From: a virus
Lineage: Duplodnaviria; Caudoviricetes
DNA: 63,389 nucleotides
IMG/VR virus record: IMGVR_UViG_3300045921_000040
Span: 1-63,389 of that record
Direction: 5' to 3' (one strand)
Positions 33,757-59,700 of this stretch are shown here, piece after piece. The stretch's first letter is position 1. Every line of letters starts with the position of its first letter. The translations under genes and the position numbers were made by a program. The notes under the pieces are model-generated. The model saw only the letters and a list, made by a program, of their open reading frames with translations, did not search any database and was not told the origin of the DNA.

Positions 33757-34980
33757 ATGCCCAAGATTAGTCCCGAACGTAGGCTGAAGAAGATTGTTAT
33801 TGGCCTTATGCGTGACCCACTGTTCGCCGACCTGTCAGGCATCATGATGCTTGGTAGGAAAGAAGTGGTGGACGACATACCCACAGCCTGCACTGATGGG
33901 CGAGACGAGCTGTACGGCAGGAAGTTCATCGAGAAGTTGGACGACAAGAGCCTTGCCTTTGTCATAGTCCACGAAGCCTTACACAAGGCTGGCAGGCACC
34001 TGCATACGTGGGAGAAGCTTCACAAGGAAGACCCACAGCTCGCCAATCAGGCGATGGATTACTGGGTTAATCTCACCATCATCAACCGCGACCCGATTGG
34101 TGACATGGTAACCATGCCCAAGGAGGGTGGAAAGGAGATTGGCCTCTACGACCGCCGCTTTGCCAATATGAACATCAAGCAAATCTTCGACATTCTCAAG
34201 CAAGAGAGCCGTATGCGCGGCGGGATAGGACGTGGAGACGGGGGCAACGAGGAAGGACGCGCATACGGAGTCGGCGGCTTCGACGAGCACGATTGGGAAG
34301 GTGCCAAGAGCCTCTCGAAAGAAGAAGTCGATGAGCTGGCCAAGGAGGTAGACCAAGCTCTCCGACAAGGTAAGATTGCTGCCGCCAAGATGCACGGCAA
34401 GGGGGCCGGTAGCGCGCATCGAGACCTCGATGAGCTGCTCAACCCGAAGGTTGACTGGCGTCAAGAGCTGCGGGAGTTTGTGTCTGCCACTTGTGCAGGA
34501 CGCGACTTCTCCTCGTGGCGCAAGCCCAACCGGCGGTTTCTGTCGCATGACATCATCATGCCCAGCCTCGTGTCTGAGCGCGTAGACCGCATGGTGATTG
34601 GTGTGGATACGTCAGGGTCCATTGGTGGACCGGAGCTTACCCGGTTCCTTTCCGAGGTCGTGGCAATCGCCGAAACTGTTAACCCGGATAAAGTTGACCT
34701 CATCTACTGGGATGCAGAGGTGGCAGGCCATGAGGTCTATAACAGCGGCACACTTGCTACGCTCGTAAACAGCACCAAACCCAAGGGTGGTGGGGGGACT
34801 AACGTGAGCTGCCTGTCGAACTACCTCAACAAACACGCCATCAAACCCGAGTGCGTGGTGGTGTTCACCGACGGTTACCTAGGCGGTGATTGGGGTGAGT
34901 GGGACGTGCCAGTCCTATGGGCTATCCACGACAATAACAGCACTACCGCGCCTGTTGGGAAAACTATTCACGTAGACTAA
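33757..34980 (+). CDS. Metallopeptidase-like plus vWA domain protein (MoxR partner)
   Basis: TACTDG, HEALH, DTSGS MIDAS, GGGGT, VFTDGY. Confidence 0.85.
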   Translation: MPKISPERRLKKIVIGLMRDPLFADLSGIMMLGRKEVVDDIPTACTDGRDELYGRKFIEKLDDKSLAFVIVHEALHKAGRHLHTWEKLHKEDPQLANQAMDYWVNLTIINRDPIGDMVTMPKEGGKEIGLYDRRFANMNIKQIFDILKQESRMRGGIGRGDGGNEEGRAYGVGGFDEHDWEGAKSLSKEEVDELAKEVDQALRQGKIAAAKMHGKGAGSAHRDLDELLNPKVDWRQELREFVSATCAGRDFSSWRKPNRRFLSHDIIMPSLVSERVDRMVIGVDTSGSIGGPELTRFLSEVVAIAETVNPDKVDLIYWDAEVAGHEVYNSGTLATLVNSTKPKGGGGTNVSCLSNYLNKHAIKPECVVVFTDGYLGGDWGEWDVPVLWAIHDNNSTTAPVGKTIHVD

Positions 34981-35004
34981 GCAAGCCAAGAAAGGAGCAA
35001 ACCA

Positions 35005-35862
35005 ATGAGCATTTCCAATTCCGCACTTCTGGTCGAGCTGAATATCAGCGTATGGACAGGCCAGCGCGTAGACCGAGTTGTAACCGATAAGGTTACCAGC
35101 GACGCCAAGGCGTCCGCAGATGCCGGGCAGTTCAAGAAGAACCTCACCGCAGGCACAACCTTGCGCAAGGAGATTGCCGACTACGCCGCCCTGTGCCGCA
35201 CGTGGCATAACAGTCGAACCATGCCGTGGTCTGACCGTGGCCCGCGCCTGCTGCCCACTTCGATGTTCCTAGACTACAAGCATGAAGTTAACGCGCGTGA
35301 AGCTATGTTCATGTCCAAGGTCGATGCGTTCTGCGACGCTTATCCGCAGCTGCTGCGCGACGCTCCGCTCCATTTGGGAGACCTGTTCGACCCCTCGGAC
35401 TACCCGAGTGTAGACGAGGTGCGCAACAAGTTCGGCTTCAATCTGGTGTTTTCCCCTGTACCCGAGGCCGGTGACTTCCGTATCCAAGCAGGTGATGCGG
35501 AGCTTCAAGAGCTGCGTGCGCAATATGAAGTTGCCTACGAAAATAGGGTCAAGGACGCAATGCAGTCGGCATGGGACAAGGTCCACGATATGCTGACCAA
35601 GATGTCCGAGAAGCTGACCGAGCCGGAAGGGGATGGTGCCAAACCCAAGCTGTTTCACAGCACTTTCCTGACCAACGTCGAAGAGCTGTGCGAGTTGCTC
35701 ACGCACTTCAATGTCACCAAGGACCCGAAGCTCGAAGCGGCGCGCCGCTCGCTTGAGCGAATGATTGCTAACGTCGATATTGACGACGTGCGCAAGGATG
35801 TCGGCACACGCATGGACCTCAAGGCGCAGGTCGATGCCGCGTTGTCCCAGTTCGATTGGTAA
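35005..35862 (+). CDS. Conserved helical phage protein of the MoxR/vWA cluster
   Basis: LVELNISVWTG..TMPW..RLLP..DYPSVDEVRNKF. Confidence 0.65.
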   Translation: MSISNSALLVELNISVWTGQRVDRVVTDKVTSDAKASADAGQFKKNLTAGTTLRKEIADYAALCRTWHNSRTMPWSDRGPRLLPTSMFLDYKHEVNAREAMFMSKVDAFCDAYPQLLRDAPLHLGDLFDPSDYPSVDEVRNKFGFNLVFSPVPEAGDFRIQAGDAELQELRAQYEVAYENRVKDAMQSAWDKVHDMLTKMSEKLTEPEGDGAKPKLFHSTFLTNVEELCELLTHFNVTKDPKLEAARRSLERMIANVDIDDVRKDVGTRMDLKAQVDAALSQFDW

Positions 35863-35876
35863 AGAGGAGCAAACAG

Positions 35877-36758
35877 ATGCGCAAAGTTCTAATCCCTATG
35901 GACGTTCACAACGCATTCCGTGAGTGTGATGAAGACCGACAAGGAGATGCACCCAACATCAACCCCAAAGTAGACCCGTTTCTTCACCCACTGCTGACCA
36001 AGCTGAGCAAGAAGCGCCCAACATGGACCTTTGTGTTCAGCCATTCTCCTAACATCGACAGCAACGGCACAGGGTATGTGCACAGCCCATTTACTATCAT
36101 GGACGGCGACGAAGCGCTAGGGCGTGTAGGTAAAGATTGGCGGTACAGAAGAGGCAGTAAAGTCTACACCTACGAAATCTACTGCGACCGCCTGAAAGCA
36201 AAACTAAGGCGTCACAGTACCGCCATTACAAGTGACACAAATAAGGCTGTCAACCTGATTTTGGGTAATATGTATCGTGTGACGACGGGTGAATTTATCC
36301 AGAAAGTCAGCGATGATGCTTACCAAAACCTGAGAAATAAACTGTATGGTTATGAGCGCAAATACACTAATACTAGTTACAGCGTTTACCATCAGGCTAT
36401 GAGCTTTCTGGTTAGCAACTCTGACATGTTCAAGGCCCAATACCCATCACTGGCAAGCAAGGTCGATGACTTAATCGAGGCGAGTAGAAACAAAGATATA
36501 GCGTCTAAGCTGCGGGGGTTTATCGACAACGATGAAATTACACTTTTCGCCGAGCGAGACGGTAAGATTTACACATTCCGTAAAGACGCCAAGAACTACG
36601 ACAATGGACTTTATATCGACGAGCTTTCAAGTCGCTATAAGCAGGCTATCGGTATGCTCAAGCTGGTGGAGAACGATACGCTCATACCCTACGTAGGGTA
36701 TCGAGCAGACGACAACGTCTTTATTGTTTTTGGCGAAAAACCTCTTGACACTGTATAA
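35877..36758 (+). CDS. Hypothetical protein
   Basis: GAGGAG RBS; C-terminal IGMLKLVE..VGYR. Confidence 0.65.
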   Translation: MRKVLIPMDVHNAFRECDEDRQGDAPNINPKVDPFLHPLLTKLSKKRPTWTFVFSHSPNIDSNGTGYVHSPFTIMDGDEALGRVGKDWRYRRGSKVYTYEIYCDRLKAKLRRHSTAITSDTNKAVNLILGNMYRVTTGEFIQKVSDDAYQNLRNKLYGYERKYTNTSYSVYHQAMSFLVSNSDMFKAQYPSLASKVDDLIEASRNKDIASKLRGFIDNDEITLFAERDGKIYTFRKDAKNYDNGLYIDELSSRYKQAIGMLKLVENDTLIPYVGYRADDNVFIVFGEKPLDTV

Positions 36759-36772
36759 GCGGAGTGTATACT
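36745..36772 (+). promoter_or_regulatory. Sigma70-type promoter
   Basis: TTGACA-N16-TATACT; shares CTTGACACTGTATAA with 48902. Confidence 0.65.
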
Positions 36773-36797
36773 CAACCATCAACCAAGGAGCAAACTG

Positions 36798-37103
36798 GTG
36801 GCAGCTACACCTGAGAAACGCGTCAAGGGCAAGGTGGTGAGCATCCTCAAGGATGAGGGTGTATACTATTTCTTCCCTGCTACCCATGGCTACGGTCGTA
36901 GTGGCATTCCGGACATCATTGTTTGCGTTAATGGGGTATTCCTAGCCATCGAGTGCAAAGCGGGAAACAACAAACCCACAGCGCTACAAATCCGTGAGCT
37001 GGAGAACATCCGCCGCAGCGGAGGCGTAGCTATTGTCGTGAACGAGCAAAACTGGGACGCAGTGCGTAACCTAGTTAGGAGCTTGAAAGGAGCAAACCAA
37101 TGA
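36798..37103 (+). CDS. VRR-NUC / Holliday junction resolvase-like nuclease
   Basis: GIPDII..AIECKAG..PTALQ. Confidence 0.85.
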   Translation: MAATPEKRVKGKVVSILKDEGVYYFFPATHGYGRSGIPDIIVCVNGVFLAIECKAGNNKPTALQIRELENIRRSGGVAIVVNEQNWDAVRNLVRSLKGANQ

Positions 37104-37610: not shown

Positions 37611-37730
37611 CTGACAGTGCACCCGCGACCGCCCTTATCGCCGCAGCCATCTCCGGCTTCATCATGGGTGTGCTGGCGTGGTGGCTGCTCGATAGCCTGT
37701 TCGGCTGAATGAATTGAGAGGAGAAAACCG

Positions 37731-38591
37731 ATGATCGAAGCAGTAACCGAAGCGATCCGCAAGATGTCCAAGGACGAGCGGGCCGCGAGCAAAACCCTCG
37801 GCAAGGACGAGGCCCGCTTTCTGGTAAATGCCTACTATCAGATGCAGGAGAACCGCATCCGCGCTGACGGGCAAGTGCGAGAGATGGCCAAGGGCGGCGA
37901 ACCGCATGAAGTGCTGGCGTGGCTGGGAGACATGAACCGGGTGCTGGAGAACCAGATCAGGGGCGCGCTCGATGCCTATTCGCTTTCCACGCCGGTCGGC
38001 CAGTGGATGCGCGCGCAGCACGGGATCGGCCCTGTGATTGCCGCCGGGTTTCTCGCCCATCTCGACATCACTAAGGCACCCGTCGCAGGTGCGTTCTGGT
38101 CGTTCGCTGGCCTCGATCCCGCTAAGTCGTGGGAGAAGGGGCAGAAGCGCCCGTGGAATGCGCAGTTGAAAACGCTGTGCTGGAAGCTGGGGGAGAGTTT
38201 CGTCAAGGTCTCGGGCAACCCCGATGCCTTCTACGGCCAGCTTTACAAGCAGCGCAAGGACTACGAGACGCGGCAGAATGACGCGGGGGCCTATGCCGAG
38301 CAGGCGAAGGCGAAACTGGACAAGTTCAAGATTGGCAAGGGGACAGACGCCTACGCCTGTTATAGCGCTGGAAAACTGCCGCCCGCCCACATCCATGCGC
38401 GCGCAAAGCGCTACGCGGTCAAGATTTTCCTCTCGCACCTGCATGAGGTGATGTATCGAGACCACTACGGCTGCCCGCCGCCCAAACCGTTTGCGGTGGA
38501 GCATCTCGGCCACGCGCACATCATCTCGGTTCCGCCGGGCAAGCCATGGAAGCTGATTGGAACAGGCCCACAGAGCGAGCCAAAGGATTAG
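37731..38591 (+). CDS. tasA: Nop-domain / IS110 C-terminal-like RNA-binding protein, TasA-like (no RuvC or HNH)
   Basis: Coiled-coil N-terminus, HGIGPVIAAGFL, FWSFAGLDP, WNAQLKT, HARAKRYAVKIFL; directly abuts a 36-nt dual-repeat array. Confidence 0.8.
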   Translation: MIEAVTEAIRKMSKDERAASKTLGKDEARFLVNAYYQMQENRIRADGQVREMAKGGEPHEVLAWLGDMNRVLENQIRGALDAYSLSTPVGQWMRAQHGIGPVIAAGFLAHLDITKAPVAGAFWSFAGLDPAKSWEKGQKRPWNAQLKTLCWKLGESFVKVSGNPDAFYGQLYKQRKDYETRQNDAGAYAEQAKAKLDKFKIGKGTDAYACYSAGKLPPAHIHARAKRYAVKIFLSHLHEVMYRDHYGCPPPKPFAVEHLGHAHIISVPPGKPWKLIGTGPQSEPKD

Positions 38592-38940
38592 AAAGTAACA
38601 AGCCATGTGAGCGAGCCATGAGGCCGGAAAGAAACAGAATATCTGAGCGAGCCAAGAGGATTGACTGAAACAAGGCAAGTGAGCGAGCCATGATTTCGGA
38701 ATGAAACACGCGGTTTGAGCGAGCTATGTAGGCTGAAAGTAACAGACGATCAGAGCGAGCCATTCACACCGACCGAAACACGAAAGGAGAGCGAGCCAAA
38801 GAAAGCGACCGAAACAAGACAAGCGAGCGAGCCATACCGCATGACGGAAACTTGATGGACGAGCGAGCCAATTCTTGAGACTGAAACATACCATTCGAGC
38901 GAGCCATAATTTTGGAAAGCAACAATGCTTACGAGCGCCA
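38573..38940 (+). ncRNA. TIGR-like array: 10 x 36-nt units [GAGCGAGCCA-N8-GANNGNAACA-N8]
   Basis: Unit starts at 38573, 38609, 38645, 38681, 38717, 38753, 38789, 38825, 38861, 38897; truncated terminal repeat at 38933; degenerate unit at 38537. Confidence 0.88.
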
Positions 38941-38956
38941 TTTACAGGAGACACAG

Positions 38957-39085
38957 ATGACCAATCCCTATCTCGAAATCCTCGGTGGCGCGCTGGTGCT
39001 GCTCGGCGGGTTCATGCTGCTCGGCCTGCTTTCGCTTGTCCCCGACGGGGGCGTGTGGGCTGAAATGATGGAGGTGCTGTCATGA
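38957..39085 (+). CDS. Small TM peptide (42 aa), not in ORF track
   Basis: AGGAG RBS; MTNPYLEILGGALVLLGGFMLLGLLSLV. Confidence 0.55.
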   Translation: MTNPYLEILGGALVLLGGFMLLGLLSLVPDGGVWAEMMEVLS

Positions 39086-39784: not shown

Positions 39785-40165
39785 ATGCTTATTATCATTC
39801 GCGGAATTCCGGGTTCCGGAAAATCGACACTTGGAGGGGCTCTTGTTCGAGCCGGTGTGGTGCACCTCAGCATTTCCGCCGACGATTGGATGGTGGACAA
39901 TAACGGGAATTATCGTTTCGACGCCTCCAGACTTCCCGAATGTCACAGAGCCTGTTTCGAAACAGCGCGCAAAGCTCTGGCAAATGGTCAATCGGTTGCG
40001 GTGTGCAACACGTTCACGCGTCGTTGGGAAGTTGAACCCTACATCGACCTTGCCAAAGAGCACGGAGTAGATGTGCAAGAAATCATCGTCAAAGGTCCGT
40101 GGCAAAGCATCCACAATCTCACCAAGCGCACTATCGAAAATATGCGCGCCAGATTTGAGATTTGA
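39785..40165 (+). CDS. P-loop kinase (polynucleotide kinase-like)
   Basis: IIRGIPGSGKST, SADDW, VCNTF. Confidence 0.85.
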   Translation: MLIIIRGIPGSGKSTLGGALVRAGVVHLSISADDWMVDNNGNYRFDASRLPECHRACFETARKALANGQSVAVCNTFTRRWEVEPYIDLAKEHGVDVQEIIVKGPWQSIHNLTKRTIENMRARFEI

Positions 40166-40176
40166 GGAGACTGACT

Positions 40177-40488
40177 ATGCAACCAATCGAACTGCCCGAC
40201 GACGGCCTGCGCGTGAATGATGGAGGTGATGCCGTGAGTGAATACGTGACGCAAGCAGATCGTGATGCGGCACAGGCACTGTGCGCGAGCGGATGGACAT
40301 ACGCGATAGAGGCCTTTGCCGCCCACCGCCGCTCCAGTGTTTCTGCTGTCGAAGCTGAAAGTGGAGTCATCCTGAAAAAGCTGCGCTCCGATGTGTTCGA
40401 GATACTGCGTCGGCACGACGTCAGCGACGAATGTTTCGCCGAGGTTGCCGCAGTTACCCACGCAGCCATTGTGGGCAAAGAGCAATAA
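40177..40488 (+). CDS. Hypothetical protein (alternative GTG start at 40234)
   Basis: GAGGAG RBS; VTQADRDAA motif. Confidence 0.5.
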   Translation: MQPIELPDDGLRVNDGGDAVSEYVTQADRDAAQALCASGWTYAIEAFAAHRRSSVSAVEAESGVILKKLRSDVFEILRRHDVSDECFAEVAAVTHAAIVGKEQ

Positions 40489-40794: not shown

Positions 40795-40962
40795 ATGCAA
40801 CCGATTGAACTTTCCGATGACGGCCTGCGCGTGACGCGCACCGGCAACGTGCATGGCTACCTCATGGTGTGCCTGCACAATCCCGCCCTCATTGCCGAGG
40901 CTATCGCCGCCAAGGCTGTCCGCCGCATGATCCGGCAAGCTAACGAGCGGGTGTTTTCATGA
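40795..40962 (+). CDS. Hypothetical 55-aa protein, not in ORF track
   Basis: AAGGAG RBS; MQPIELSDDGLRV. Confidence 0.5.
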   Translation: MQPIELSDDGLRVTRTGNVHGYLMVCLHNPALIAEAIAAKAVRRMIRQANERVFS

Positions 40963-41476: not shown

Positions 41477-41685
41477 TGAACAGGATTGCTATTGCCGTAA
41501 CCCTTATCGGGCTTGGTCTGACCCTTCTCGTACAGACTGTGCCAACCGCTGCACAGCAGCGTGAGTATTACCTCGTAGCGCAGTGGGTTGGCGACTACGG
41601 TCAGCGGTTTTGCAGGTATAGTAACGGCACTGTGCTGAATGTCGGTGTGAATGTGTGCCCGCTCAGCATCAAGGCTTGGATGTGA
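41476..41685 (+). CDS. Small secreted Cys-containing protein
   Basis: Signal-peptide-like N-terminus; FCRYSNG..CPLSI. Confidence 0.55.
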   Translation: MNRIAIAVTLIGLGLTLLVQTVPTAAQQREYYLVAQWVGDYGQRFCRYSNGTVLNVGVNVCPLSIKAWM

Positions 41686-42977
41686 TGACAAACCTTATCG
41701 TTTGCGATGCAGAGACCTTTTACGACCGCACGTTCAGTTTATCCAAGCTTACTACGGAAGAATATATCCGCCACGAGCTTTTTGAGACCATCGGTTGGGC
41801 AGTGAAGGTCAATGACGAGCCTGCACAGTGGTTCTCAGGGCCGAAGCGTGAAGTCAAGCAGTGGCTAGACCAGTTCCCGTGGGGTGACAGCATCGCTGTG
41901 GCGCACAATGCCGCATTCGATATGGCTATCCTTAACTGGCACTTCGATATCCGTCCCAAGAGGATTGCAGATACCCTCTCCATGCTGCGAGCCATTGACG
42001 GGCCGGATGCAGGTAACAGCCTAGCTAAAGCTGCAGAACGCTATGGGGTGGGAAAGAAGGGCGACGAGGTCGTCAATGCGCTTGGCAAGAGGCGGCTGGA
42101 TTTCACCCCACAAGAGCTTGCTCGGTATGGTGAGTATTGCATCAACGACGTCGAGCTTACCTACAAGCTCTTTGAACATATAGCTCCGCTACTGCCCGCC
42201 AGCGAGCTTCGCCTAATTGACCTTACCATACGTATGTTTACGGAGCCCACTTTGGAGCTGGATAGGGACGTATTGGAAGAGCACCTGACCGAGGTTAGGG
42301 AGAAGAAGCAGAAGCTCATGGATGCGATCACCGCAGATAAGAGCGTGCTCATGTCCAACCCGAAGCTGGCCGAGCTCCTTATGAGCCTCAAGGTGGCGCC
42401 GCCGACAAAGGTTAGCCCAAGAACCGGGAAGACCACATGGGCTTTTGGTAAGACTGATGAGGCGTTTAAAGAGTTGTTGGACCACCCTGACCCTCGGGTG
42501 CAGACTATTGTCGCTGCTCGCATTGGAGTGAAATCGACTCTTCAAGAAACCCGCACGGAACGGTTTATTTCCATCGCCAATCGTGGGACGCTCCCTGTTC
42601 CTTTGCGCTACTATGCTGCACACACAGGGCGCTTTGGGGGTTGCTTAGTTGACGATACCCAGGTTACGGTGTATGACCCATTCTGGGGCGTTTGCAACAA
42701 ACGCATTGTTGATGTGCTGCTAGACGACCTTGTGTGGGACGGAGAAGAGTTCGTTTCGCACGATGGTGTAGTTTTTAGCGGGTTTGCAGAAGTCATTGAG
42801 TGGGATGGCGTAAAAGGGACCGAAGACCATGTCGTATTCACGGACGCCGGAGAGATGTCGCTACGAGAGGCAATGCAGGGAAATCACCGCATCAAAACTG
42901 GTGGCGACATTTCCGAAGACGCTGTGGACGCCGCTAGAAAGTTGCTACGTAACTACAAAAACCAAGATAAAGTGTAA
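41685..42977 (+). CDS. polA: DNA polymerase A, N-terminal part (3'-5' exonuclease) fused to split-intein N half
   Basis: DAET, AHNAAFD, YCINDV exonuclease motifs; extein ends HTGRFGG, then CLVDDTQV intein block A. Confidence 0.88.
   Translation: MTNLIVCDAETFYDRTFSLSKLTTEEYIRHELFETIGWAVKVNDEPAQWFSGPKREVKQWLDQFPWGDSIAVAHNAAFDMAILNWHFDIRPKRIADTLSMLRAIDGPDAGNSLAKAAERYGVGKKGDEVVNALGKRRLDFTPQELARYGEYCINDVELTYKLFEHIAPLLPASELRLIDLTIRMFTEPTLELDRDVLEEHLTEVREKKQKLMDAITADKSVLMSNPKLAELLMSLKVAPPTKVSPRTGKTTWAFGKTDEAFKELLDHPDPRVQTIVAARIGVKSTLQETRTERFISIANRGTLPVPLRYYAAHTGRFGGCLVDDTQVTVYDPFWGVCNKRIVDVLLDDLVWDGEEFVSHDGVVFSGFAEVIEWDGVKGTEDHVVFTDAGEMSLREAMQGNHRIKTGGDISEDAVDAARKLLRNYKNQDKV
42642..42977 (+). mobile_element. 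Split intein, N-terminal half
   Basis: Starts with Cys; TEDH block B; ends at a stop codon. Confidence 0.82.
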
Positions 42978-43599
42978 ATGTCAATGCGGCGCAGAGAAAG
43001 AGATTAGGGTAAAAGATATACTTAGCGGAAGAAGTAAGTCGTGCCGGTCTTGTGCGTTTCGCCTAAGAGCCGCAAAAATGCCTAAGGCCGAAAGGGTAGC
43101 TAGAGCTAAAAAAGCTTCTACCGCCGCCGCTGCAGCGCTTGCTGCTAGGATGGTCAATCACCCATATAGGTTGAAGTATGGCGATGCGTACGATTATTTG
43201 CTGGAATTAGCTTCCAGCGCAAAGAGCAGATGCTGTAACCCTAACCATAACGCATATGTTAATTATGGGGCACGGGGTGTAACTTTTGGGTTCCCATCTG
43301 TAAGCGCTTTCGCCGAATGGGTATTGGATAATATAGGCCCAAAGTCGGATGCTTCGTACTCTATAGATCGTATAGACAACAACAGAGGCTACGAGCCCGG
43401 TAATCTACGGTGGGCAACTCGTCTTGAGCAAGCGCGCAACAGAAGGGCTTACAAAAGAACCAAAAATGGAGAACGTATACGTTATCTAAAAGACCTACGG
43501 CCAGACTTAACATACGAAACAATCCGCATATGGATTGCTAAGGGCATGGACGACGAAGAAATACTTGGGAGAAAAAAGTATGCTCGTTCCAGTATATGA
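42829..43599 (+). CDS. Free-standing HNH homing endonuclease between the split-intein halves (start uncertain)
   Basis: CKCQCG, SCRSC, YGARGV, SIDRIDNNRGYEPGNLRWAT..QARN. Confidence 0.85.
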   Translation: MSYSRTPERCRYERQCREITASKLVATFPKTLWTPLESCYVTTKTKIKCKCQCGAEKEIRVKDILSGRSKSCRSCAFRLRAAKMPKAERVARAKKASTAAAAALAARMVNHPYRLKYGDAYDYLLELASSAKSRCCNPNHNAYVNYGARGVTFGFPSVSAFAEWVLDNIGPKSDASYSIDRIDNNRGYEPGNLRWATRLEQARNRRAYKRTKNGERIRYLKDLRPDLTYETIRIWIAKGMDDEEILGRKKYARSSI

Positions 43600-43657
43600 C
43601 ATTAGGAATTGTGGGCCTAGACGTAGGTTTGTGGCCAATGGAAAGTTAGTACACAAT
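43580..43657 (+). mobile_element. Split intein, C-terminal half (26 aa)
   Basis: VYDI..FVANGKLVHN followed by Ser. Confidence 0.82.
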
Positions 43658-45352
43658 TCAGAGTCCATTAACCTTCAAAACCTTCCTCGCAAAAGTCCGT
43701 TAAGGAAAGCCATCAAGGCCCCGGAAGGCTACGTAATTATTGACTGTGACTCCTCGCAGATTGAAGCGCGCACCCTTGCGTGGCTGGCTGAACAGAATGA
43801 CCTTGTTGAAGCCTTTGGTCGTGGAGATGACGTTTACAAGATTATGGCTTCGGCCATATACGACGTGCCAGTCGAGGAAGTAACCGCTGAACAACGGTTT
43901 GTAGGAAAAACAACAATTCTTGGTTGTCTTGCCGAGGGAACTTTGGTATTAACCGATAGAGGTTGGGTAGCAATTGAACACGTTACCCTCGATGACCGTC
44001 TTTGGGATGGGGAAGAGTGGGTATGCCATCAAGGATTAGTGAAGAAAGGCATCAAAGAAACATTGAATCTTTGCGGGCTTTGGTTGACGCCAGATCACAA
44101 AATATTGTGCGGGACGCAGTGGTTGGAGGCGCAATCAGTGGTGCAAGACAGCGCTACCCTCTCCCTAGCATTGGACACCGGAGCGGTAACTTGGTTGTCA
44201 CCGGATATGTTAAAGGGCCACGTGGAGGTGTGGCCTCGCTTATCGTGCAGTGCGATTGCGGACGCCCTGAGTACACCGTTGACCGCCACAACTTTAAGGA
44301 CTTCAAAAGCACACGTTGCCCCCTCTGCGGCAGGCGGGAAGGCCACCGCAAGCGGTATTGGAATTACATCTCTGCACTCCCCGACGAGCAGCACAGGGTG
44401 CGACTCCTTAACCGGCTTTCCGCCGCAATCAATCGGTGTCACGTCCCCAGTAGCAGGGCGTACGCCGACTACGGGGGTAGAGGTATTACTGTACACAAAC
44501 AGTGGTGAGAAGACCGGGCGGCTTTCCTCAGGTACGTCCAGACGGTGCCCGGATGGGATGACCCAAACCTCGAAATGGACCGCGAGGACAACGACCGAGG
44601 ATACGAACCCGGCAACATCAGGTTTGTCACACGCGCCGTCAACCATGCAAATAAGAGAAAAGTTAAAATCCTTCAGACGGAACTTGATGACCTACGACAT
44701 CGCCTACGCAGGGCCGAGGAACAGATACACAGTTGCGACAAATGCCGGGCCAATTATCGTACATAATTGCGGTTATGGCATGGGGGCGGAAAGGTTCCAG
44801 ACACAACTGAAAGCCTTTGGTGTAAACCTTTCATTAGAAGAATGCCGCCACATTATTCGTACATACCGGCAAACCTATCCACAAATTGTCAAGCTATGGT
44901 CTAACGCTGACCGCGCATTAGATGCTCTGCGCTCACAACGCACTTGTGAGCTTGGGCGTGAAGGGGTGCTACAATTAGACCTGTTCGGTATAAAGCTACC
45001 CAACGGTATGTACCTACGCTATAACAACTTGCGTGTTGACAATGACGGCGAACTTGTTTATGATACAAAGCAAGGGAAGAGCGTTGTACCTACGAAAATA
45101 TACGGGGGGAAATCTGTTGAGAATATTACCCAAGCCTTAGCCCGCATAATCATAGCCGAGCAAATGCTGATGATATCGCGCAGGCTGCGCGTGGTTCTGA
45201 CTGTGCACGACAGCGTTGTAGCTTTGGCTCCTGAGGAGCAAGCTGGAGAGGCTAGGGCATTTGTAGAGCAGTGTATGCGAACACGCCCAAAGTGGGCACC
45301 AGGGTTGCCGTTGGGTTGCGAAAGTAAGGTGGGAGTGTGCTATGGAGGATAA
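43580..45352 (+). CDS. polA: DNA polymerase A, C-terminal part with split-intein C half and a second intein
   Basis: GGGAG RBS; MLVPVYDI..KLVHN then SESINLQNLP; motif A DSSQIEAR; motif B KTTILG/CGYG; motif C VHDS. Confidence 0.88.
   Translation: MLVPVYDIRNCGPRRRFVANGKLVHNSESINLQNLPRKSPLRKAIKAPEGYVIIDCDSSQIEARTLAWLAEQNDLVEAFGRGDDVYKIMASAIYDVPVEEVTAEQRFVGKTTILGCLAEGTLVLTDRGWVAIEHVTLDDRLWDGEEWVCHQGLVKKGIKETLNLCGLWLTPDHKILCGTQWLEAQSVVQDSATLSLALDTGAVTWLSPDMLKGHVEVWPRLSCSAIADALSTPLTATTLRTSKAHVAPSAAGGKATASGIGITSLHSPTSSTGCDSLTGFPPQSIGVTSPVAGRTPTTGVEVLLYTNSGEKTGRLSSGTSRRCPDGMTQTSKWTARTTTEDTNPATSGLSHAPSTMQIREKLKSFRRNLMTYDIAYAGPRNRYTVATNAGPIIVHNCGYGMGAERFQTQLKAFGVNLSLEECRHIIRTYRQTYPQIVKLWSNADRALDALRSQRTCELGREGVLQLDLFGIKLPNGMYLRYNNLRVDNDGELVYDTKQGKSVVPTKIYGGKSVENITQALARIIIAEQMLMISRRLRVVLTVHDSVVALAPEEQAGEARAFVEQCMRTRPKWAPGLPLGCESKVGVCYGG
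43925..44767 (+). mobile_element. Contiguous intein (281 aa) in polymerase motif B
   Basis: CLAEGTLV..TPDH...TYDI..IIVHN followed by Cys. Confidence 0.85.
44023..44766 (+). pseudogene. Out-of-frame HNH endonuclease nested in intein 2, interrupted by TGA at 44506
   Basis: ORFs 44002..44508 and 44545..44766 share one frame: QCDCG, RCPLC, YGGRGITVHKQW*EDRAAF..MDREDNDRGYEPGNIRFVT. Confidence 0.75.
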
Positions 45353-53742: not shown

Positions 53743-56700
53743 CTATTTCGGCCTGAACATTTCCTGCGAGCGCAGGATACGTTCTGCATCCTTCTTGTTA
53801 ATCTCCCTACCTTCCAAAGTGCGAGAGCTACGCTCGTCGCGGCTGGTGAGCGACCTAAGAATGCTTTCCTCTGTGATGAGGAACCTCTCGTTCGGGTAAG
53901 TCCGGTTAAACGGTATGACAACCTCCTTGATATACTCGCGGAAGTCCTCCACAGTGCGGAACTCCCCATCGCGTCGCTTCTGAGCGATCTCGTCGAGAAT
54001 CTCTTTCTTCTCTTGCTCAATACGCTTTTCGTTCTTGAGTGCTGTAATGTAGTAGTCTTGCCACTTCGCAAGGCGAAGAGAACGTGCACCGACAATAGAG
54101 CGGAACGTATCCGATTCCGTAATATGCTCTTTGGGGATGATGGTATCCCCCTTGCGGTTGAGCACGCCTTCGGTCGAGTTGTAGTATGCATTTACCCATG
54201 AGCGGAAGAACGCCGGGGAAATCTTCTTGAGCGCTTCGCGCGTGTTGCCATCCATGAAGTCGTCGATACCGCGCATAATCTGAGACGCGGTGCTGAACCC
54301 GGCGACGTTAGCGATGAGAGCGGCAATCGTCGTACTTTCAAGGTTATCACCCGCAATAGGTTCACGATACCACATCTTGACCAGGTCCATGGTCGTGGTG
54401 CTGGAGATTTCGGTATCAGTGAGAACTCCAAGAGGACCATCAATCAGTATATTGGCCAGAGTGCTCTGACCGCGCTCGTCAACACCAAGGTAGTTCGACA
54501 ACCAACGCCGGAAGGCGATGTCCGCGTCATAGACAGTGGCTGCATCCTCCTGCATCATCTTGAGGACGTCGTCGTCATCATCCGGGTCTGGACCAAACGC
54601 ATAAGCCAGCGCTTCGACCATGATAGTGTAGAGCGGAAGTCCGGCAATGCCGCCCAAGAGCCCAGCCATCATAAGGACACCGGAGAGCTCCTTGAGTGCA
54701 CCTGCTACCTCAGCAGTGTCCTGCTTGGACAGTTTACCTCTACCAGTAGCTTGCCGTGCCACACCCCGCAGCGGAGCCGCGATAATATCGCGGAACGCAC
54801 CAACCATGAATTTGGTCTGCAGAATGGGGTGCATCTTGAACAGGAAGAAGCCACGAGACAGCTCACCCTTCGTGAGGCTGGGGCGCTCCCAGTTAGCAAA
54901 GTTGCCAATGGTATCGTCCACAATCTCCATAGCCTTGAACAGCGCCTGCCGTCGCCCACGCTCAACGAAGTCCTTATCGCTTTCCCCCTCATCCGGCTTG
55001 TTATTCTTGCGGAACTTGTTGAGCTCCAACTCAAATGCCATGTAGAAAGTAGCCTGACGCGAGATGTTTTCTGTCCCCGTGAACATGAAGGTCATGGCCT
55101 TGAGCGTGTTCGCTGTGATGTCATTGGCTTTAGCCAACACACCAGATTGAGGCATGAGCGTATTCGCCCGCTCATTCTGAGCAATAGTCTCAGCTGTAGT
55201 AACGAGGACACCACGCTCCATTGCGGCCTTCTTTGCCCACTGCAGGTCTGCGCTATTCTTGACAAAGCGCGATGCGTTAACGCTCGGCATTATCGCGTCG
55301 ATGTAATCACCAAAACTCGCGTTGGTGCGCTCGATCTGCACCCTCCCGAGGCTATCCCACATCTGCATATACTTCAGCCACATGCGGGTGCCTTCAGTGT
55401 AGCCATACTCGCGCCAGAACCTCGGCACGACCCGCATAGGGATGTTCGCGAAGTTGGTCAGCGCAGTCTTGGCTGATGTCAGGAAATACAGAAAGGACAC
55501 GCGGTTAAGCACGTTGATAGATGCGGCCAAAGAGCCCGGAGGGGGAGGATTGATCTCCTGCTCCGCACGCTCCTCAAGTTCACGTGCAAAGTCGTAAAGC
55601 ATAACGGCTTCTGCATCAGGCCGCTCAGGGTCGTTGATGACATCCTTCATGGCCGAGACAGCCGTGCGAATCCTACCGGCAAAAGCCAGTTTGGTCAGTT
55701 CGTTGGCGTTGGTGACGACTTGCTTGTTGAAGTCATCCACCACGTTAAGGGAGAAGCCAGCGATCTCCTTCGCGTGCAGGAACCGACGGCGTGTAGAGCG
55801 CTCAGGAGTGGTCATGAGATATGTCTGGAATATGCCGTCGAGCAATTCGTCGATATTTGCTGAACCACGTTCCTTAGCTTGATCCCTGGCTTTGTTCACG
55901 AGGTCAAACACCCGCTTCATGAGTGCGTCCTCGCTCTTGATAACTTCCTGCAGGTCGGCGATGTCGTTACCACTACGGAACACAGTACGGTCGTTAGGAT
56001 CGACGCCCAACTGCTTAGCTAGCATGCGCTTGGCCTTGGCCAGATCGCGCGCGCTTTCGAACGTATAGAAAGCTTCTTCGCGCCGCTGCTTGGCGTCCTC
56101 GGAGACACGCAACCAGTACTTCCCCGTACGCATCATGGGGAAGTAGTCCTTGGGGAACAGGTCAGGGTCCAAATCCCAGAACAGGTCGCCGCTTTTCTTG
56201 CGCTCTTCGGCATCATTTGCCTCACGCATGAGCTCTGCCCGCAATTCGCGGATACGCTTTTTCTGTTCGCTGTCTAGATTCGGCTCAGTTTCGAGACGCT
56301 CGTCAAGAAGTGCGAGACGCGCTTCGAATACGTCCTTATGGTAGTCACGCTCGGCCTTGTACAGCTCCAGACCGCCATTCTGCTTGGCTAGTCTCTCCTT
56401 GGCAGCGTATGTATCTCTTACCGCCTGCACCCTACCGGCAAGTTGCCTGACCTTGAGTTCGGTTCTGGCCTTGTTGATAGCTGTGCCCCTAAGGGCCGCA
56501 AGTTTGCCTTGCACGGGGGCAGACAGGTCAACCTTATCCTTGAATACACTCGTAGTGTCAGATGGCTTGCGCACTTCTGCCTTGATCTCGTCGATAAGCT
56601 TACGCGCCATAGCCTTGTCGTTTGAGTTATTGATTAGAGCATCTTCAATCGCTTTAATATCCTCGCCACCTTTAAGTGCTTCCTCGACTGTCTCAAACGC

Positions 56701-59700
56701 AAACGGGTCTACGCGGTTAATGCGGGCGGAAAAACGAAGCTCAGCCAGAGCCTCACTGCCGTACTTGCGCACGAAATCCTGCATAGCCCGCTTGATAGGG
56801 TTAGCAGCCTCGATGAGGTTGTTGCGGGTCGCACCCATTCTTCGCACGTAGTCAGCCACTTCTACAGCAGCTGAGTGGACGGCTGGGGACTTACGCTTAA
56901 GCCAGTTGAGAATGCCGGATGTTGGCATACCCTTGAGCGCCTTCACTCGCACTGGGCTAGCCGTATCCTCTGCAAAGACGAGCGCGTCACGGAGCTTGCT
57001 GTTTGCTTCCGTAGCCTCATTGATGCCGTCCTCGATGCCATAGACGCTTACGGTATCCCTGACCCTGCGGGCACCGGCACTTGCGCCCTGAATGGCGTCT
57101 TTGACTTCTTTCGGTTGGTCGGCTTTTCGCTTTTTCTGGGCGGCGGCATAGTTGAGTTTGTAATTCGGATCGCCGCTCAGCACGCGAGCTGCCTCAATGT
57201 CCCCCGTGTAAAGCAACTGGTTGCCGATGCGAAGAACTTCAGCGAGCGCGGAGTCGCTCTTGACAGACAGCCCAAGGATATTGCGCACCACCTCAATGAA
57301 GCGCTGGAAGATGGTCTGCTTACCCTTGTACGGTACCGTGTTGAGGTACTCCATCACATCCGGGTTAGAGAGGGTCCAAGCCAGCAGCTCCTGCTCGTTT
57401 TCGAAAGCATTGTTAGAGTCGTAGATAGACTGAATTTCCAAAGCCGTAAGGGCTTCGCCCGACTGCTTACGCTGGTCTATATGGTTAGTAATCGAGGCCA
57501 ACACATCTCGTAGATCGTTGCTAAGGCGCGCAGTGCGTGTGCCTTTCAGACTAGCGTTTTGCCCAAGCTCCAGATATGGGATGGTTGCTACATGCACAAA
57601 CTCGTGCAGTAGCGTCTCGTAACTCATGCCGGTATTCGTACCAGCACTAGCGGGGTTGACATACACCGTGATGCTGAAGCCTTCAGCAACGGCTACAGCA
57701 TTGGCAGCATCTGCGAACGCTTCTTTAGCAAGTTGTGGAAGACTCCCGACATCGTCCGCAATCTGGAAGTCTATATCCACTCCAAATCGCTGTAGCCGCT
57801 TTATCGCATTTCGCACCCCTCGTGCGATGGTTGCAAAGGCTTGGTTGGGAGCGGTGTCCACCAACCAGTCAACTACTTCGCTAGTCAGCTTACCACGAAG
57901 ATCAGCTTCAATCTGCTGTGGCGTACGCTGGTCACTCTTTGCGCCCTTGCCTTGGTGCAGCCGCTGAACTCTGAGTTGCTCACGGTCGATCTTGGCATCG
58001 CGCGCTTCACGGGTATCACCGGCTTTTTCCGCTTCCTTCTGGCGAATGCGGGCACCAAGTTTCTCGTCTTGGCGCATCTCCACCATCGACTTGAGTGCAG
58101 CGCGAGCGGGGTTTAGCAGGCTGTTCTTGACGGCGGCGACAAGTCGATTGTTGGCTTCTTCGGCAGCGGCAGTAGCGGCGGCGCGCTCTTCTGCAGAGGC
58201 ATTGTTGGCCACGCTTGCAGCTTCGATTGCAGCTTTCTCCAGTTTAGCGATGGCGTCGTTCGGCACCATCCGATCTCCTTTCGGAGATAGGCGGTAGGCA
58301 TTAGGACGCTCAAGCCTTCTAAGCAGCTCTGCGCGCTGAAGATTGTCGATGAGCCCCGCTTTACGAGCTGCGTCTACCTCAGCAGTGAAATCCTGTATCA
58401 TCCGCGTAGCCACAGTGGGGTATGGCTGCTCGTTGGACTCTCGCTCTTCTAGTTGCTCAAGGGCGGGAGGAGTCGGCGGTATATAGGGGGTAAGCTCATC
58501 CATACGACCGTAGACCTGATCGGAAAAATCCTGCAGTGTCTTGGCCTTGAGAACTTCTTCCGGCTTCTTACCCAACTGGGTTTCAGCTACGAGCTTATAC
58601 GGGTTAGCATCTTCCGGATCGTAGACGACCTTATAGGCAGCGTTCTCAGGGGCCTGAGCACGCAGCGCGTATTCGATGTCGCCGAGAGTTTCTTCGCGTT
58701 CAGCTTCTTCGCGCTGGCGCTGTTCCTTGGCGCGCTCTTGCGATGCACCCAATCCAGCAAAAACCTGTTCCTGCCTAGCTATGCGCTCCTCATACGGGCT
58801 AAGCTGCTGCGCAGCCAACTCTTCGCGCTTCAGCTCTTCTCCCGGCGCTTCCTGCAGAGGCAGAGCGCCGAACATGTCCATGGTTTGAGTGTCTTTAGGT
58901 CGCCGACCCCGCTGGGGGAAAGCACGACCTGACAAAGAGCCCGGAGGGGGGCCATAAGCAATTTCTTCAAGAAGCTCTACATCCCCACCAGCGGCTTCAT
59001 AGTCGCTGAGAGCAACGGGGTTGTTTAGGATGGTATATGCCGCACCGGGGGTTAATTTTGCGGGGTTTTCGGCAGAATAATAAGCCTGTTCAGTAGGGTT
59101 GGTGACCTTGTAATTTGGCTTTGGTCCCGATTCTGGGGCGGCTTCCTGTCGCTTCGTTGCCCGCGCTTTATTGGTAGCCGCTTCGTTTAGTGACGCGGCC
59201 TCATTGGCGAAGAACTGTTGAGCTGCAGGAGCAAGCGCCCCCTGCATGAGCGCGTCCATACTCGGCGTGCCCTGCATGTCTATGAACTTGCTAGCAAGAG
59301 ACTTGACCAATGGAGCGGGTGGTGTCACCCCTGCGCCCACCAGCTTATCATACATAGATAGGCTACTTCCAAAGCTGGCCTCATCGAGCGGCTGCACCCC
59401 GACTTCCGCAAGCTGTTCCGCAACTTTTGCCTGCGGCGAGACAGTTTCAACGGGCGGAATAATAACAGACGGGGCTTCAGCCTCGTACGCACGCCACAGA
59501 GCCTCCCTTTCCTCAGGGTCCACAGGGGGAGGTGTAGGTTCAGGACTAGGCTGCAGTTCTGGTTCTGGTCCCGGTTGTTCGCCAACCGCGCCCCCCTGCT
59601 CCATCTGGGCAGCCTGCTGTTCGATAGCGGCCTTCCTGGCTCGCATAATCTCTGCGATAGTGCGCGAGGTCTCTTCATCGAACCCACGTTGCTGGAACCG

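What the first reader, a model, noticed from the sequence alone, without database searches (positions are those of the whole stretch)
37731..38940. Phage-encoded RNA-guided system: nuclease-less Nop/IS110-like protein plus 36-nt dual-spacer (TIGR-type) array
Seen: ten exact 36-nt units, each GAGCGAGC(C/T)A + 8 variable nt + GANNGNAAC(A/T) + 8 variable nt. Spacer pairs are AAGGATTA/AGCCATGT, TGAGGCCG/GAATATCT, AGAGGATT/AGGCAAGT, TGATTTCG/CGCGGTTT, TGTAGGCT/GACGATCA, TTCACACC/CGAAAGGA, AAGAAAGC/AGACAAGC, TACCGCAT/TGATGGAC, ATTCTTGA/TACCATTC and TAATTTTG/ATGCTTAC; all 20 are different. Nearly every spacer is bracketed by (C/A)CA and GA, a pseudo-symmetric box C/D-like layout. The adjacent 286-aa protein has a coiled coil and GIGP..AGL.P motifs of the Nop/IS110 RNA-binding region, with no N-terminal DEDD RuvC and no HNH. 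Established: this layout matches TIGR-Tas, where 36-nt guides with two short spacers direct PAM-independent DNA binding, and TasA is the nuclease-less class. Inference: a programmable DNA-binding or repressor system against host genes or competing elements. Its function and targets are unknown, and the 8-nt variable segments may mark a variant.
Basis: partly seen in the sequence, partly recalled or inferred. Interest (0 to 1): 0.95.

Follow-up and report, generated by a model that had tools for sequence, protein, structure and literature searches.

The report
Phage TIGR array with nuclease-less TasA
A 63-kb phage genome carries a small RNA-binding protein followed by ten 36-base guide units, an ordinary member of the TIGR-Tas family of RNA-guided DNA binders first described in 2025; what it targets is still unknown.

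Summary
Ten 36-nt units lie in exact register at 38573-38932. Each is a 10-nt edge repeat, an 8-nt spacer A, a 10-nt loop repeat and an 8-nt spacer B. They follow, and overlap by 19 nt, a 286-aa gene at 37731-38591.

The protein passes NCBI's curated TIGR-Tas model (216 bits against a cut-off of 100). It matches solved TasR and TasH chains by sequence. Its AlphaFold model has TasH/TasR as its ten best PDB matches. It is all-helical and has no nuclease domain, so it is a TasA.

The edge repeat and the 8+8 spacer layout are those of the characterised Salicola phage CGphi29 array. The 8-nt spacers are therefore not a new variant.

The most likely mechanism is by homology. A TasA dimer cuts the transcript into 36-nt guides that bind 16-bp DNA sites and block transcription. 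No guide matches the phage itself or five related viral records.

Three local features depart from the published descriptions I read:
- Phe replaces the processing Tyr.
- No terminator follows the array.
- The cassette is shared with an unrelated phage.

This is a new member of a known kind, of modest interest.

The parts
37718..37723 (+). Shine-Dalgarno-like GAGGAG, 7 nt before the tasA start codon
   Evidence: read
37731..38591 (+). tasA: 286-aa nuclease-less TIGR-associated protein. It has a coiled-coil hairpin at about residues 25-84 and a Nop-type RNA-binding domain at about 88-270. The tail at 277-286 is disordered and is encoded by the first array unit.
   Evidence: ORF. NF052498.1: 216.3 bits, cut-off 100. 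PDB TasR 9mty 1.2e-18 and TasH 5.6e-13 with the family profile. AF2 pLDDT 87.6. Foldseek: the top 10 matches are TasH/TasR.
38573..38932 (+). TIGR dual-repeat array: ten 36-nt units (edge 10, spacer A 8, loop 10, spacer B 8). The first 19 nt overlap the end of tasA.
   Evidence: the same edge repeat is found in relatives and in Salicola phage CGphi29
38933..38940 (+). shortened terminal edge repeat GAGCGCCA; conserved in the relatives L001 and L002
38946..39085 (+). AGGAGA ribosome-binding site (38946-38951) and a 42-aa hydrophobic ORF (ATG at 38957). It starts 17 nt after the array, with no terminator between. This places the array inside an operon. The ORF is probably not a functional part of the system.
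   Evidence: the same junction is found in L001 and L002
36745..36772 (+). candidate operon promoter (TTGACA-16-TATACT, 11 of 12 positions), about 960 nt upstream of tasA. This is a consensus match only.

Best explanation
This is a dual-repeat TIGR-TasA system carried by a tailed phage. The steps below are marked as shown or inferred.
1. tasA and the array are transcribed together on the + strand as part of a longer operon. This is inferred: all neighbouring genes are on +, and no terminator-like site lies between tasA and the genes downstream.
2. TasA forms a symmetric dimer through its N-terminal coiled coil. This is modelled, not shown.
3. The dimer recognises the (C/A)CA and GA motifs that flank each spacer. 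It cuts, or helps to cut, the transcript inside the edge repeats into ten 36-nt tigRNAs. This is inferred from SpTasH, which uses almost the same edge repeat and a Tyr/His pair. Here the His is kept (H261) and the Tyr is Phe (F254).
4. In each tigRNA, spacer A pairs with one DNA strand and spacer B with the other strand of the adjoining 8 bp. Together they specify a 16-bp site with no PAM. This is inferred from TasR and TasH.
5. Having no nuclease, the complex binds and bends the DNA and blocks transcription or replication. This is inferred from a different TasA, MbTasA, shown to repress genes in E. coli.
6. The targets are neither the phage's own genome nor the five related viral records tested. 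Host genes or unrelated mobile elements are therefore the likely targets. This is inference by exclusion.
For: Protein.
- NF052498.1 'TIGR-Tas system RNA-guided endonuclease': E 4.7e-64, 216.3 bits against a cut-off of 100, residues 28-241 on profile positions 1-214 of 215.
- phmmer against PDB: TaTasR 9mty 7.5e-13, SpTasH 2.4e-11.
- Family profile A1 against PDB: 1.2e-18 and 5.6e-13, then IS621 at 2.7e-4 and ISCro4 at 2.8e-3.
- AF2 model: pLDDT 87.6, pTM 0.84, 13 helices and no strands.
- Foldseek against PDB: 11 matches with E <= 0.001; the ten listed at ranks 1-10 are all TasH or TasR chains (E 5.5e-8 to 1.5e-6, TM 0.53-0.74).

Array.
- Ten in-register units.
- The Salicola phage CGphi29 array next to SpTasH has edge (A/G)AGCGAGCCA, 8-nt spacers and a 36-nt period.
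- In 26 of 38 related loci a 7-mer recurs at least 3 times at 33-41-nt spacing beside the homologue. In 15 of those 26 the 7-mer lies in the GAGCGAGCCA core.
- Spacers differ completely between loci: the best of 11,612 unit pairs matches at 11 of 16 positions.

Dimer.
- Homodimer model score 0.58, best of 3 controls 0.16. That mark was reached by 20 of 30 proteins solved as pairs of one chain and by 1 of 23 solved as single chains. The runs agree in at least 85% of contacts, and the partner's pLDDT is at least 78. The interface is residues 9-79.
- Tas dimers have been solved, so this pass may reflect likeness to them.

Processing.
- SpTasH Y289 and H296 are the catalytic residues (PMC13421893, section 15).
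- BLASTP aligns them with F254 and H261.
- H261 is invariant in 120 of 120 homologues.

Function.
- TasA binds 36-nt RNAs (Faure et al., section 5).
- MbTasA represses a reporter and cysG and shifts target DNA (Xu et al. preprint, section 12).

Phage context.
- Terminase, portal, polymerase and primase hits.
Against: - No RNA data exist for this locus, so neither transcription nor 36-nt products are shown.
- The catalytic Tyr of SpTasH is Phe here, as in 16 of 120 homologues (104 have Tyr). Self-processing may therefore be weak or done differently.
- The loop repeat ends in ACA while the edge repeat ends in CCA. Faure et al. say these motifs almost always covary.
- No terminator-like site follows the array, unlike the typical arrays described.
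- No target was found. In the phage genome there are 0 hits at <= 2 mismatches, in both orders and with gaps of 0-2. At exactly 2 mismatches, 100 shuffles gave means of 0.76 and 0.89 for the two orders.
- Against 257,016 b of phage sequence (this genome, five related viral records and one further related contig), 27 guides gave 0 hits at <= 1 mismatch. At 2 mismatches there were 25 hits, against 20.2 in shuffles.
- Repression has been shown only for another TasA that was not compared with this one.
Confidence: 0.85

Rival explanations
1. The cassette is a real TIGR-TasA locus, but its main role here is local. Cutting the edge repeats severs the operon transcript between tasA and the downstream genes. 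On this reading the array acts as an RNA-processing or regulatory element, and the guides have no fixed DNA targets.
For: No terminator follows the array, and the next ORF's ribosome-binding site starts 6 nt after the last shortened repeat. This junction is conserved in L001 and L002. No target was found in the scans I ran.
Against: The spacers are completely different between close relatives while the repeats are kept. That is expected of guides, not of mere cleavage sites. A single cleavage site would do the job, yet there are ten units. Targets could only be sought in 257 kb of phage DNA.
Confidence: 0.06
2. TasA guides a separate nuclease supplied in trans, such as the Hjc/VRR-NUC-like protein encoded 630 nt upstream. 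The system would then cut rather than merely bind.
For: An Hjc-like ORF at 36798-37103 (PF01870, 1.5e-5, 25.3 bits, cut-off 21.1) lies on the same strand.
Against: That protein is found beside tasA in only 1 of 38 related loci, L002, which is the closely related phage. Faure et al. report no clear association of TasA with other proteins. Such resolvases are common phage replication genes.
Confidence: 0.05
3. The locus is a decayed IS110-family transposase fragment next to an unrelated satellite or iteron repeat (protein-binding DNA repeats). It would not be an RNA-guided system at all.
For: Pfam Transposase_20 gives a weak hit (19.1 bits, cut-off 21.3). PHROGs names the family 'transposase'. 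NCBI names one homologue 'transposase'.
Against: The IS110 model scores 19.7 bits against a cut-off of 140, while the TIGR-Tas model scores 216.3. No DEDD domain is present. The ORF is intact, and 5,657 homologues of similar length were found at E <= 0.001. The repeat is the one used by the experimentally processed Salicola phage array.
Confidence: 0.02

Closest known systems
TIGR-TasH of Salicola phage CGphi29 (SpTasH; PDB 9W03, 9W04, 21KL and others)
   Same: Both are phage-borne. Both have a 36-nt unit with 8-nt spacers A and B. The edge repeats are nearly the same, (A/G)AGCGAGCCA against GAGCGAGCCA. The Nop-type domain is 26% identical over 212 columns and gives the best fold matches. The catalytic His and Glu292 are kept as H261 and E257.
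   Different: SpTasH has an N-terminal HNH nuclease and cuts DNA; this protein has none. The loop repeat is AAGACAACCA against GANNGNAAC(A/T). The Salicola array ends in a hairpin followed by a T run; this one runs straight into the next gene. Tyr289 is Phe254 here.
TasA proteins studied experimentally: FpTasA (Flavonifractor plautii), MbTasA (Minisyncoccota) and PlTasA (Peromyscus gut)
   Same: They belong to the same class, Nop domain plus coiled coil with no nuclease. FpTasA binds 36-nt RNAs from a dual-repeat array. MbTasA is an RNA-guided repressor. This is what the present protein most likely works like.
   Different: PlTasA uses stem-loop tigRNAs (abstract), not dual repeats.
TaTasR (Thermoproteota archaeon; PDB 9MTY)
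   Same: It is the best sequence match in the PDB (1.2e-18 with the family profile). It also has a coiled-coil dimer and a Nop domain, and CCA precedes each spacer.
   Different: It has an N-terminal RuvC nuclease of about 120 residues, 9-nt spacers, and repeats that start with UG rather than GA.
IS110/IS621 bridge-RNA recombinases
   Same: They are distant homologues of the RNA-binding domain (2.7e-4; Foldseek ranks 12-17).
   Different: They have a DEDD catalytic domain and a single bridge RNA, and they carry out recombination. This protein fails the IS110 model (19.7 bits against a cut-off of 140).
Nuclease-free CRISPR effectors (type IV, type V-M, dCas9 as a tool)
   Same: They work alike: an RNA-guided DNA binder that interferes without cutting. 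Both papers draw this comparison.
   Different: The proteins are unrelated. CRISPR uses one long spacer pairing with one strand and needs a PAM. CRISPR repeats are 25-36 nt.

Membership tests
TIGR-Tas system (dual-repeat type) | Tas protein with the Nop-type RNA-binding domain | tested here: met
   NF052498.1: 216.3 bits against a cut-off of 100. TasR and TasH matched by sequence and by fold.
TIGR-Tas system (dual-repeat type) | [quoted passage not shown] | tested here: met
   Ten units of 10+8+10+8 nt directly after the gene. The definition is from Faure et al., section 4.
TIGR-Tas system (dual-repeat type) | Box C before and box D after each spacer, alike in the edge and loop repeats | tested here: met
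   GA follows 20 of 20 spacers. CCA (9), CTA (1), ACA (9) or ACT (1) precedes them. The edge and loop repeats share only the final CA, so the match between them is partial.
TIGR-Tas system (dual-repeat type) | Array ends in a shortened edge repeat followed by a rho-independent terminator (typical, not obligatory) | tested here: inconclusive
   The shortened edge repeat is present at 38933-38940. No terminator-like site lies on the + strand between 37977 and 40500.
TIGR-Tas system (dual-repeat type) | Coiled-coil homodimer | tested here: met
   This is a model only: score 0.58 against a best control of 0.16, with a symmetric interface at residues 9-79. It may reflect likeness to solved Tas dimers.
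TIGR-Tas system (dual-repeat type) | Tyr/His pair on the C-terminal loop that matures the tigRNA (typical of dual-repeat Tas, absent from stem-loop Tas; not family-defining) | tested here: inconclusive
   H261 is present and invariant in 120 of 120 homologues. The Tyr position is F254: Tyr in 104 and Phe in 16 of 120 homologues. The residues are from PMC13421893, section 15, and Xu et al., section 10.
TIGR-Tas system (dual-repeat type) | Array transcribed and processed to 36-nt RNAs bound by the protein | not testable with these tools
   No RNA run holding the locus was listed.
TIGR-Tas system (dual-repeat type) | Tandem-spacer, PAM-free binding of DNA | not testable with these tools
   This needs EMSA or a reporter assay.
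TasA subclass | No HNH or RuvC domain fused to the Nop domain | tested here: met
   The ORF cannot extend upstream. The profile match to TaTasR starts at about its residue 124, aligned with our residue 39. The model is all-helical. Pfam finds no nuclease domain.
IS110-family transposase | DEDD RuvC-like catalytic domain plus the full Transposase_20 domain | tested here: not met
   NF033542 scores 19.7 bits against a cut-off of 140. PF02371 scores 19.1 against 21.3, on 36 residues only, and there is no DEDD hit.
CRISPR array | Repeats of about 25-36 nt separated by single spacers of similar size | tested here: not met
   The array has two alternating 10-nt repeats and 8-nt spacers.
Box C/D snoRNP (Nop5/Nop56/58) | Nop5-type protein with a fibrillarin-binding N-terminal domain; guide RNA with K-turn box C/D motifs | tested here: not met
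   No Nop5 or Prp31 chain appears in the listed Foldseek rows and there is no Pfam Nop hit. Rfam gives only chance-level snoRNA hits outside the array.

The most novel reading that the evidence does not exclude
This phage lineage may carry a TIGR-TasA variant whose array sits inside an early or replication operon rather than at its end. Its protein has lost the catalytic Tyr of the guide-maturation pair. Maturation would then depend on His alone or on a host RNase, and every cut would also sever the messenger for the downstream genes. Guide production and operon expression would be coupled. The ten guides would silence host or rival-element genes in a hot-spring mat community. The cassette itself appears to move between unrelated phages.
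Probability: 0.2. Interest if true: 0.55.

Novelty: new member of a known kind. Interest (0 to 1): 0.3.

Why it matters
TIGR-Tas was described only in 2025, and the natural targets and biological role of the nuclease-less TasA are still open (Faure et al., Discussion; Xu et al., Discussion).

This locus is a clean natural example in a whole 63-kb phage genome.
- It has ten intact guides.
- It has close relatives with entirely different guides.
- Its edge repeat is shared with the best-studied TasH system.

That makes it a convenient subject for three experiments:
- testing whether a Tyr-to-Phe TasA still matures its own guides;
- testing whether an operon-internal array affects downstream genes;
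- once the host is known, finding what a phage TasA binds.

In itself it adds no new kind of system.

Tried and rejected
Self-regulation. All ten spacer pairs were scanned against the phage genome in both possible orders (A then reverse-complement of B; reverse-complement of A then B), with gaps of 0-2. There were 0 hits at <= 2 mismatches and 23 at 3 mismatches. I rejected self-regulation through well-matched sites.

Targeting of close relatives. 27 guides were scanned against 257,016 b: 10 from the window, 4 from G001, 3 from G002, 4 from G003 and 6 from L001. There were 0 hits at <= 1 mismatch. My pattern did not parse G004's array. G005 was dropped because its array equals G003's.

Shared guides between loci. 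None were found. The permissive pattern used there also picks up some units outside true arrays.

Rfam. Only three chance-level hits (E 1.5-5.9), none in the array.

tRNA genes as a host clue. None found.

Host.
- Terminase relatives infect Pelagibacter, Synechococcus, Planktothrix and Roseobacter at 36-56% identity. This gives no usable host.
- The GenBank phage collection holds the TasA-like protein in only 3 records: Salicola phage CGphi29 (filed twice) and Microcystis phage Mvi-JY20.
- The first genome-contig scan found nothing. The second, with the alignment, gave 32 loci from many phyla, which does not point to one host.
- The metagenome scan gave one locus, the same contig as L004.

Expression. 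No RNA holder was listed, so nothing can be said either way.

Laid contigs. These are DNA only. Parts of the array without cover in runs X3, X5 and X9 are not evidence of anything.

Not done.
- I did not search host or large collections for the 16-bp targets. At this length chance matches swamp any signal, a point Xu et al. also make.
- The supplementary tables of the papers were closed. I therefore could not check whether this very locus is among the 20,096 published tas loci or in TIGRSafari.
Full report
WHAT IS THERE

The window is a complete virus record of 63,389 b. PHROGs finds a terminase, portal, structural and tail-fibre proteins, a DNA polymerase and a primase/helicase.

On the + strand, within a long run of + strand genes that includes replication genes, lies a 286-aa ORF at 37731-38591. 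A GAGGAG ribosome-binding site precedes it.

From 38573 to 38932 there are ten units of exactly 36 nt. Each unit consists of:
- GAGCGAGCCA (one unit has T at position 9);
- 8 variable nt;
- GANNGNAAC(A/T);
- 8 variable nt.

A shortened repeat, GAGCGCCA, follows the tenth unit. All 20 variable octamers differ. Tandem Repeats Finder sees the 36- and 72-nt periods.

With at most one mismatch, the edge 10-mer occurs ten times in the array. Elsewhere in the genome it occurs only as eight scattered one-mismatch copies. I add one detail: the first edge repeat and spacer A encode the last six codons and the stop of the ORF.

THE PROTEIN

Sequence evidence:
- Pfam gives only a sub-threshold hit to the IS110-family C-terminal domain (19.1 bits, cut-off 21.3).
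- PHROGs places it in phrog_4285, named 'transposase' (2.9e-49).
- NCBI's curated model NF052498.1, 'TIGR-Tas system RNA-guided endonuclease', is passed clearly. The score is 216.3 bits against a cut-off of 100, E 4.7e-64, with residues 28-241 covering the whole profile. The IS110 transposase model scores 19.7 against 140.
- Among solved structures, the best sequence matches are TaTasR (9MTY, 7.5e-13) and SpTasH (2.4e-11).
- With a profile of 35 family members the values become 1.2e-18 and 5.6e-13, followed at a distance by the IS621 and ISCro4 bridge-RNA recombinases.

Structural evidence:
- An AlphaFold2 model built on that alignment is confident (pLDDT 87.6, pTM 0.84) and entirely helical.
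- Its ten best PDB matches by Foldseek are all TasH or TasR chains (E 5.5e-8 to 1.5e-6). The IS110-family recombinases come next.
- No archaeal Nop5 or Prp31 chain is in the listed rows. The 'Nop fold' is therefore reached through the Tas structures, not directly.

Absence of a nuclease domain:
- The profile match to TaTasR starts at about its residue 124, opposite our residue 39.
- The ORF cannot be extended upstream.
- No nuclease family is hit.

The protein is therefore a TasA, the class without a nuclease.

A homodimer model passes the tool's mark. The score is 0.58 and the best of three controls is 0.16. That mark was reached by 20 of 30 proteins solved as pairs of one chain and by 1 of 23 solved as single chains. 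The runs agree in at least 85% of contacts, and the partner's pLDDT is at least 78. The symmetric interface lies on residues 9-79, the coiled-coil hairpin. Because Tas dimers have been solved, this may show likeness only.

THE ARRAY COMPARED WITH KNOWN ONES

Faure et al. (Science 2025, PMC12045711; I read sections 4-8, 10 and 24 and the figure legends) define TIGR arrays as two alternating 8-12-nt repeats, edge and loop. These are separated by short spacers A and B, and the array is processed to 36-nt tigRNAs. Box C lies before and box D after each spacer. They give 16 variable nt for the Salicola phage CGphi29 system.

I fetched that phage and read its array. It has edge (A/G)AGCGAGCCA, 8-nt spacers, loop AAGACAACCA and a 36-nt period, and it ends in a hairpin with a T run. 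The window's edge repeat and 8+8 layout are thus those of an array that has been studied experimentally. The 8-nt spacers are not a variant.

The differences in the window's array are:
- the loop sequence, which ends in ACA rather than CCA;
- the lack of any terminator-like site after the array;
- the next gene, a 42-aa hydrophobic ORF (ATG 38957, ribosome-binding site 38946-38951), which begins 17 nt after the last repeat. The same junction is seen in the relatives L001 and L002.

RELATIVES

- The family is large: 5,657 proteins of similar length at E <= 0.001, with the best at 91% identity.
- Six viral contigs and 32 loci in bacterial and archaeal genomes of many phyla encode relatives.
- In 26 of these 38 loci a 7-mer recurs at least three times at 33-41-nt spacing next to the gene. 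In 15 of the 26 the 7-mer is part of the GAGCGAGCCA core. The 12 loci without such a chain include short or cut contigs.
- Repeats are conserved while spacers are not. Across 157 parsed units, no pair from different loci shares more than 11 of 16 variable positions.
- G001 is a close relative of the whole phage: 25.5 kb aligns at 85%.
- G002 is a 98%-complete 44.7-kb virus. It shares only 37749-38672 (the gene and the start of the array) plus 56 nt. The cassette therefore moves between unrelated phages.
- Contigs from DNA runs labelled hot-spring and microbial-mat metagenomes hold the locus.
- The laid contigs also hold variants whose tasA differs at roughly one position in eight to ten. Their array units carry other spacers.
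- One low-depth contig (3.5x, 52 nt on the shorter side) joins 37733 to 38967. It thus lacks the gene and the array.

HOW IT MOST LIKELY WORKS

By homology, not by any measurement on this locus:
1. The operon transcript carries tasA and the array.
2. A TasA dimer binds the box motifs and matures ten 36-nt tigRNAs.
3. Spacers A and B pair with opposite strands of adjoining 8-bp segments, which defines a 16-bp site without a PAM.
4. The nuclease-free complex blocks transcription or replication.

The experimental basis is as follows:
- TasA, TasR and TasH all bind 36-nt RNAs.
- Tandem-spacer targeting by TasR and TasH.
- Autonomous, metal-independent maturation by SpTasH through Y289 and H296 (NAR 2026, PMC13421893, section 15; Xu et al. 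preprint, section 10).
- Sequence-dependent, reversible repression and target-DNA shift by MbTasA (Xu et al. preprint, section 12).

Of Guan et al. 2026 I saw only the outline and abstract.

A LOCAL DEPARTURE

BLASTP aligns SpTasH residues with the window's residues as follows:

| SpTasH | Window |
|---|---|
| Y289 | F254 |
| E292 | E257 |
| K293 | H258 |
| H296 | H261 |

Among the 120 best homologues, position 254 is Tyr in 104 and Phe in 16. H261 and H263 are invariant. The Phe lineage keeps its arrays (L001-L003). Either Tyr is dispensable here or maturation is done differently. This is testable by mutation.

TARGETS

I scanned both possible target orders with gaps of 0-2 bp.
- The phage genome has no site with <= 2 mismatches for any of the ten guides.
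- 27 guides from five arrays have no site with <= 1 mismatch in 257 kb of this and related phage genomes. The 2-mismatch hits (25) are at the level of the shuffles (20.2).
- Regulation of the phage's own genes through well-matched sites is therefore unlikely, and so is targeting of these relatives.
- The host is unknown: there are no tRNA genes, and the terminase relatives infect several phyla.
- Searching large collections for 16-mers is uninformative. The authors of the family say the same.

RIVALS

- A purely local RNA-processing role is possible but does not explain ten hypervariable guide pairs.
- A nuclease supplied in trans has little support. The Hjc-like gene in the operon accompanies tasA in only 1 of 38 loci.
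- A dead IS110 fragment next to iterons is contradicted.

VERDICT

The system belongs to a published family for which NCBI has a curated model, so it is a new member of a known kind.

The points worth keeping are:
- the Tyr-to-Phe change;
- the operon-internal array without a terminator;
- the evidence that the cassette moves and is sometimes absent;
- the clean whole-phage context for a future search for targets.

I could not check whether this locus is already listed in the papers' supplementary tables, which were closed.

Noticed in passing
window 38490-38513 (codons for residues 254-261): The residue aligned with the catalytic Tyr289 of SpTasH is Phe254. Among the 120 best homologues it is Tyr in 104 and Phe in 16. 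His261 and His263 are invariant. Glu at 257 occurs in 10 of the 120 homologues, 9 of them with Phe at 254.
   Followed up: partly
window 37733-38967: One contig of run X9 (depth 3.5, 52 nt on the shorter side, 7 other letters between) joins the tasA start codon region to the start of the small downstream ORF. That variant lacks tasA and the whole array. The evidence is weak, but it fits a gain or loss of the cassette.
   Followed up: no
window 37749-38672 against G002 (L042-L044): A 98%-complete 44.7-kb viral record shares only tasA and the first array units with this phage (75% DNA identity; the protein is 82% identical), plus 56 nt elsewhere. The cassette is shared between otherwise unrelated phages.
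   Followed up: partly
window 38583, 38619... (first base of each spacer A): The first base of spacer A is A or T in 10 of 10 units, while the first base of spacer B is mixed. In relatives it is less strict: 5 of 6 in L001. This is unexplained. It may mean that the box C contact extends one base into the spacer.
   Followed up: no
window 38717-38726: The only change in an edge repeat (C to T at position 9, unit 5) would keep a G-U pair with the G at position 1. This holds if the box C/D pair described for TasR also forms here.
   Followed up: no
window 41655-45352: The DNA polymerase is spread over two ORFs, 41655-42977 and 43535-45352. There are extra segments matching phrog_26005 and an endonuclease family (phrog_93) between the polymerase parts. 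This looks like an intein or homing-endonuclease insertion, or a split polymerase.
   Followed up: no
window 53743-60855 (- strand): A 2,370-aa ORF whose residues 1182-2363 match a DarB-like antirestriction family (phrog_10089, 6.1e-25).
   Followed up: no
window 36745-37103: A near-consensus promoter-like site (TTGACA-16-TATACT) lies just before an Hjc/VRR-NUC-like 101-aa ORF on the same strand as tasA. The nuclease accompanies tasA only in the closely related phage L002, 1 of 38 loci.
   Followed up: yes
window 40162-40230 and 40795-40860: Two small + strand ORFs begin with almost the same peptide, MQPIEL(P/S)DDGLRV. This points to a local duplication of a gene start.
   Followed up: no
window 37731-38591; P0091: The database names mislead. 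PHROGs calls the family 'transposase' and NCBI calls a Halomonas homologue 'transposase'. The NCBIfam name says 'endonuclease', although this member has no nuclease domain.
   Followed up: yes
G003 (L045-L047), - strand 34235-35407: This relative has array units on both sides of its tas gene (two groups about 1.1 kb apart). That matches the flexible array positions described by Xu et al..
   Followed up: no
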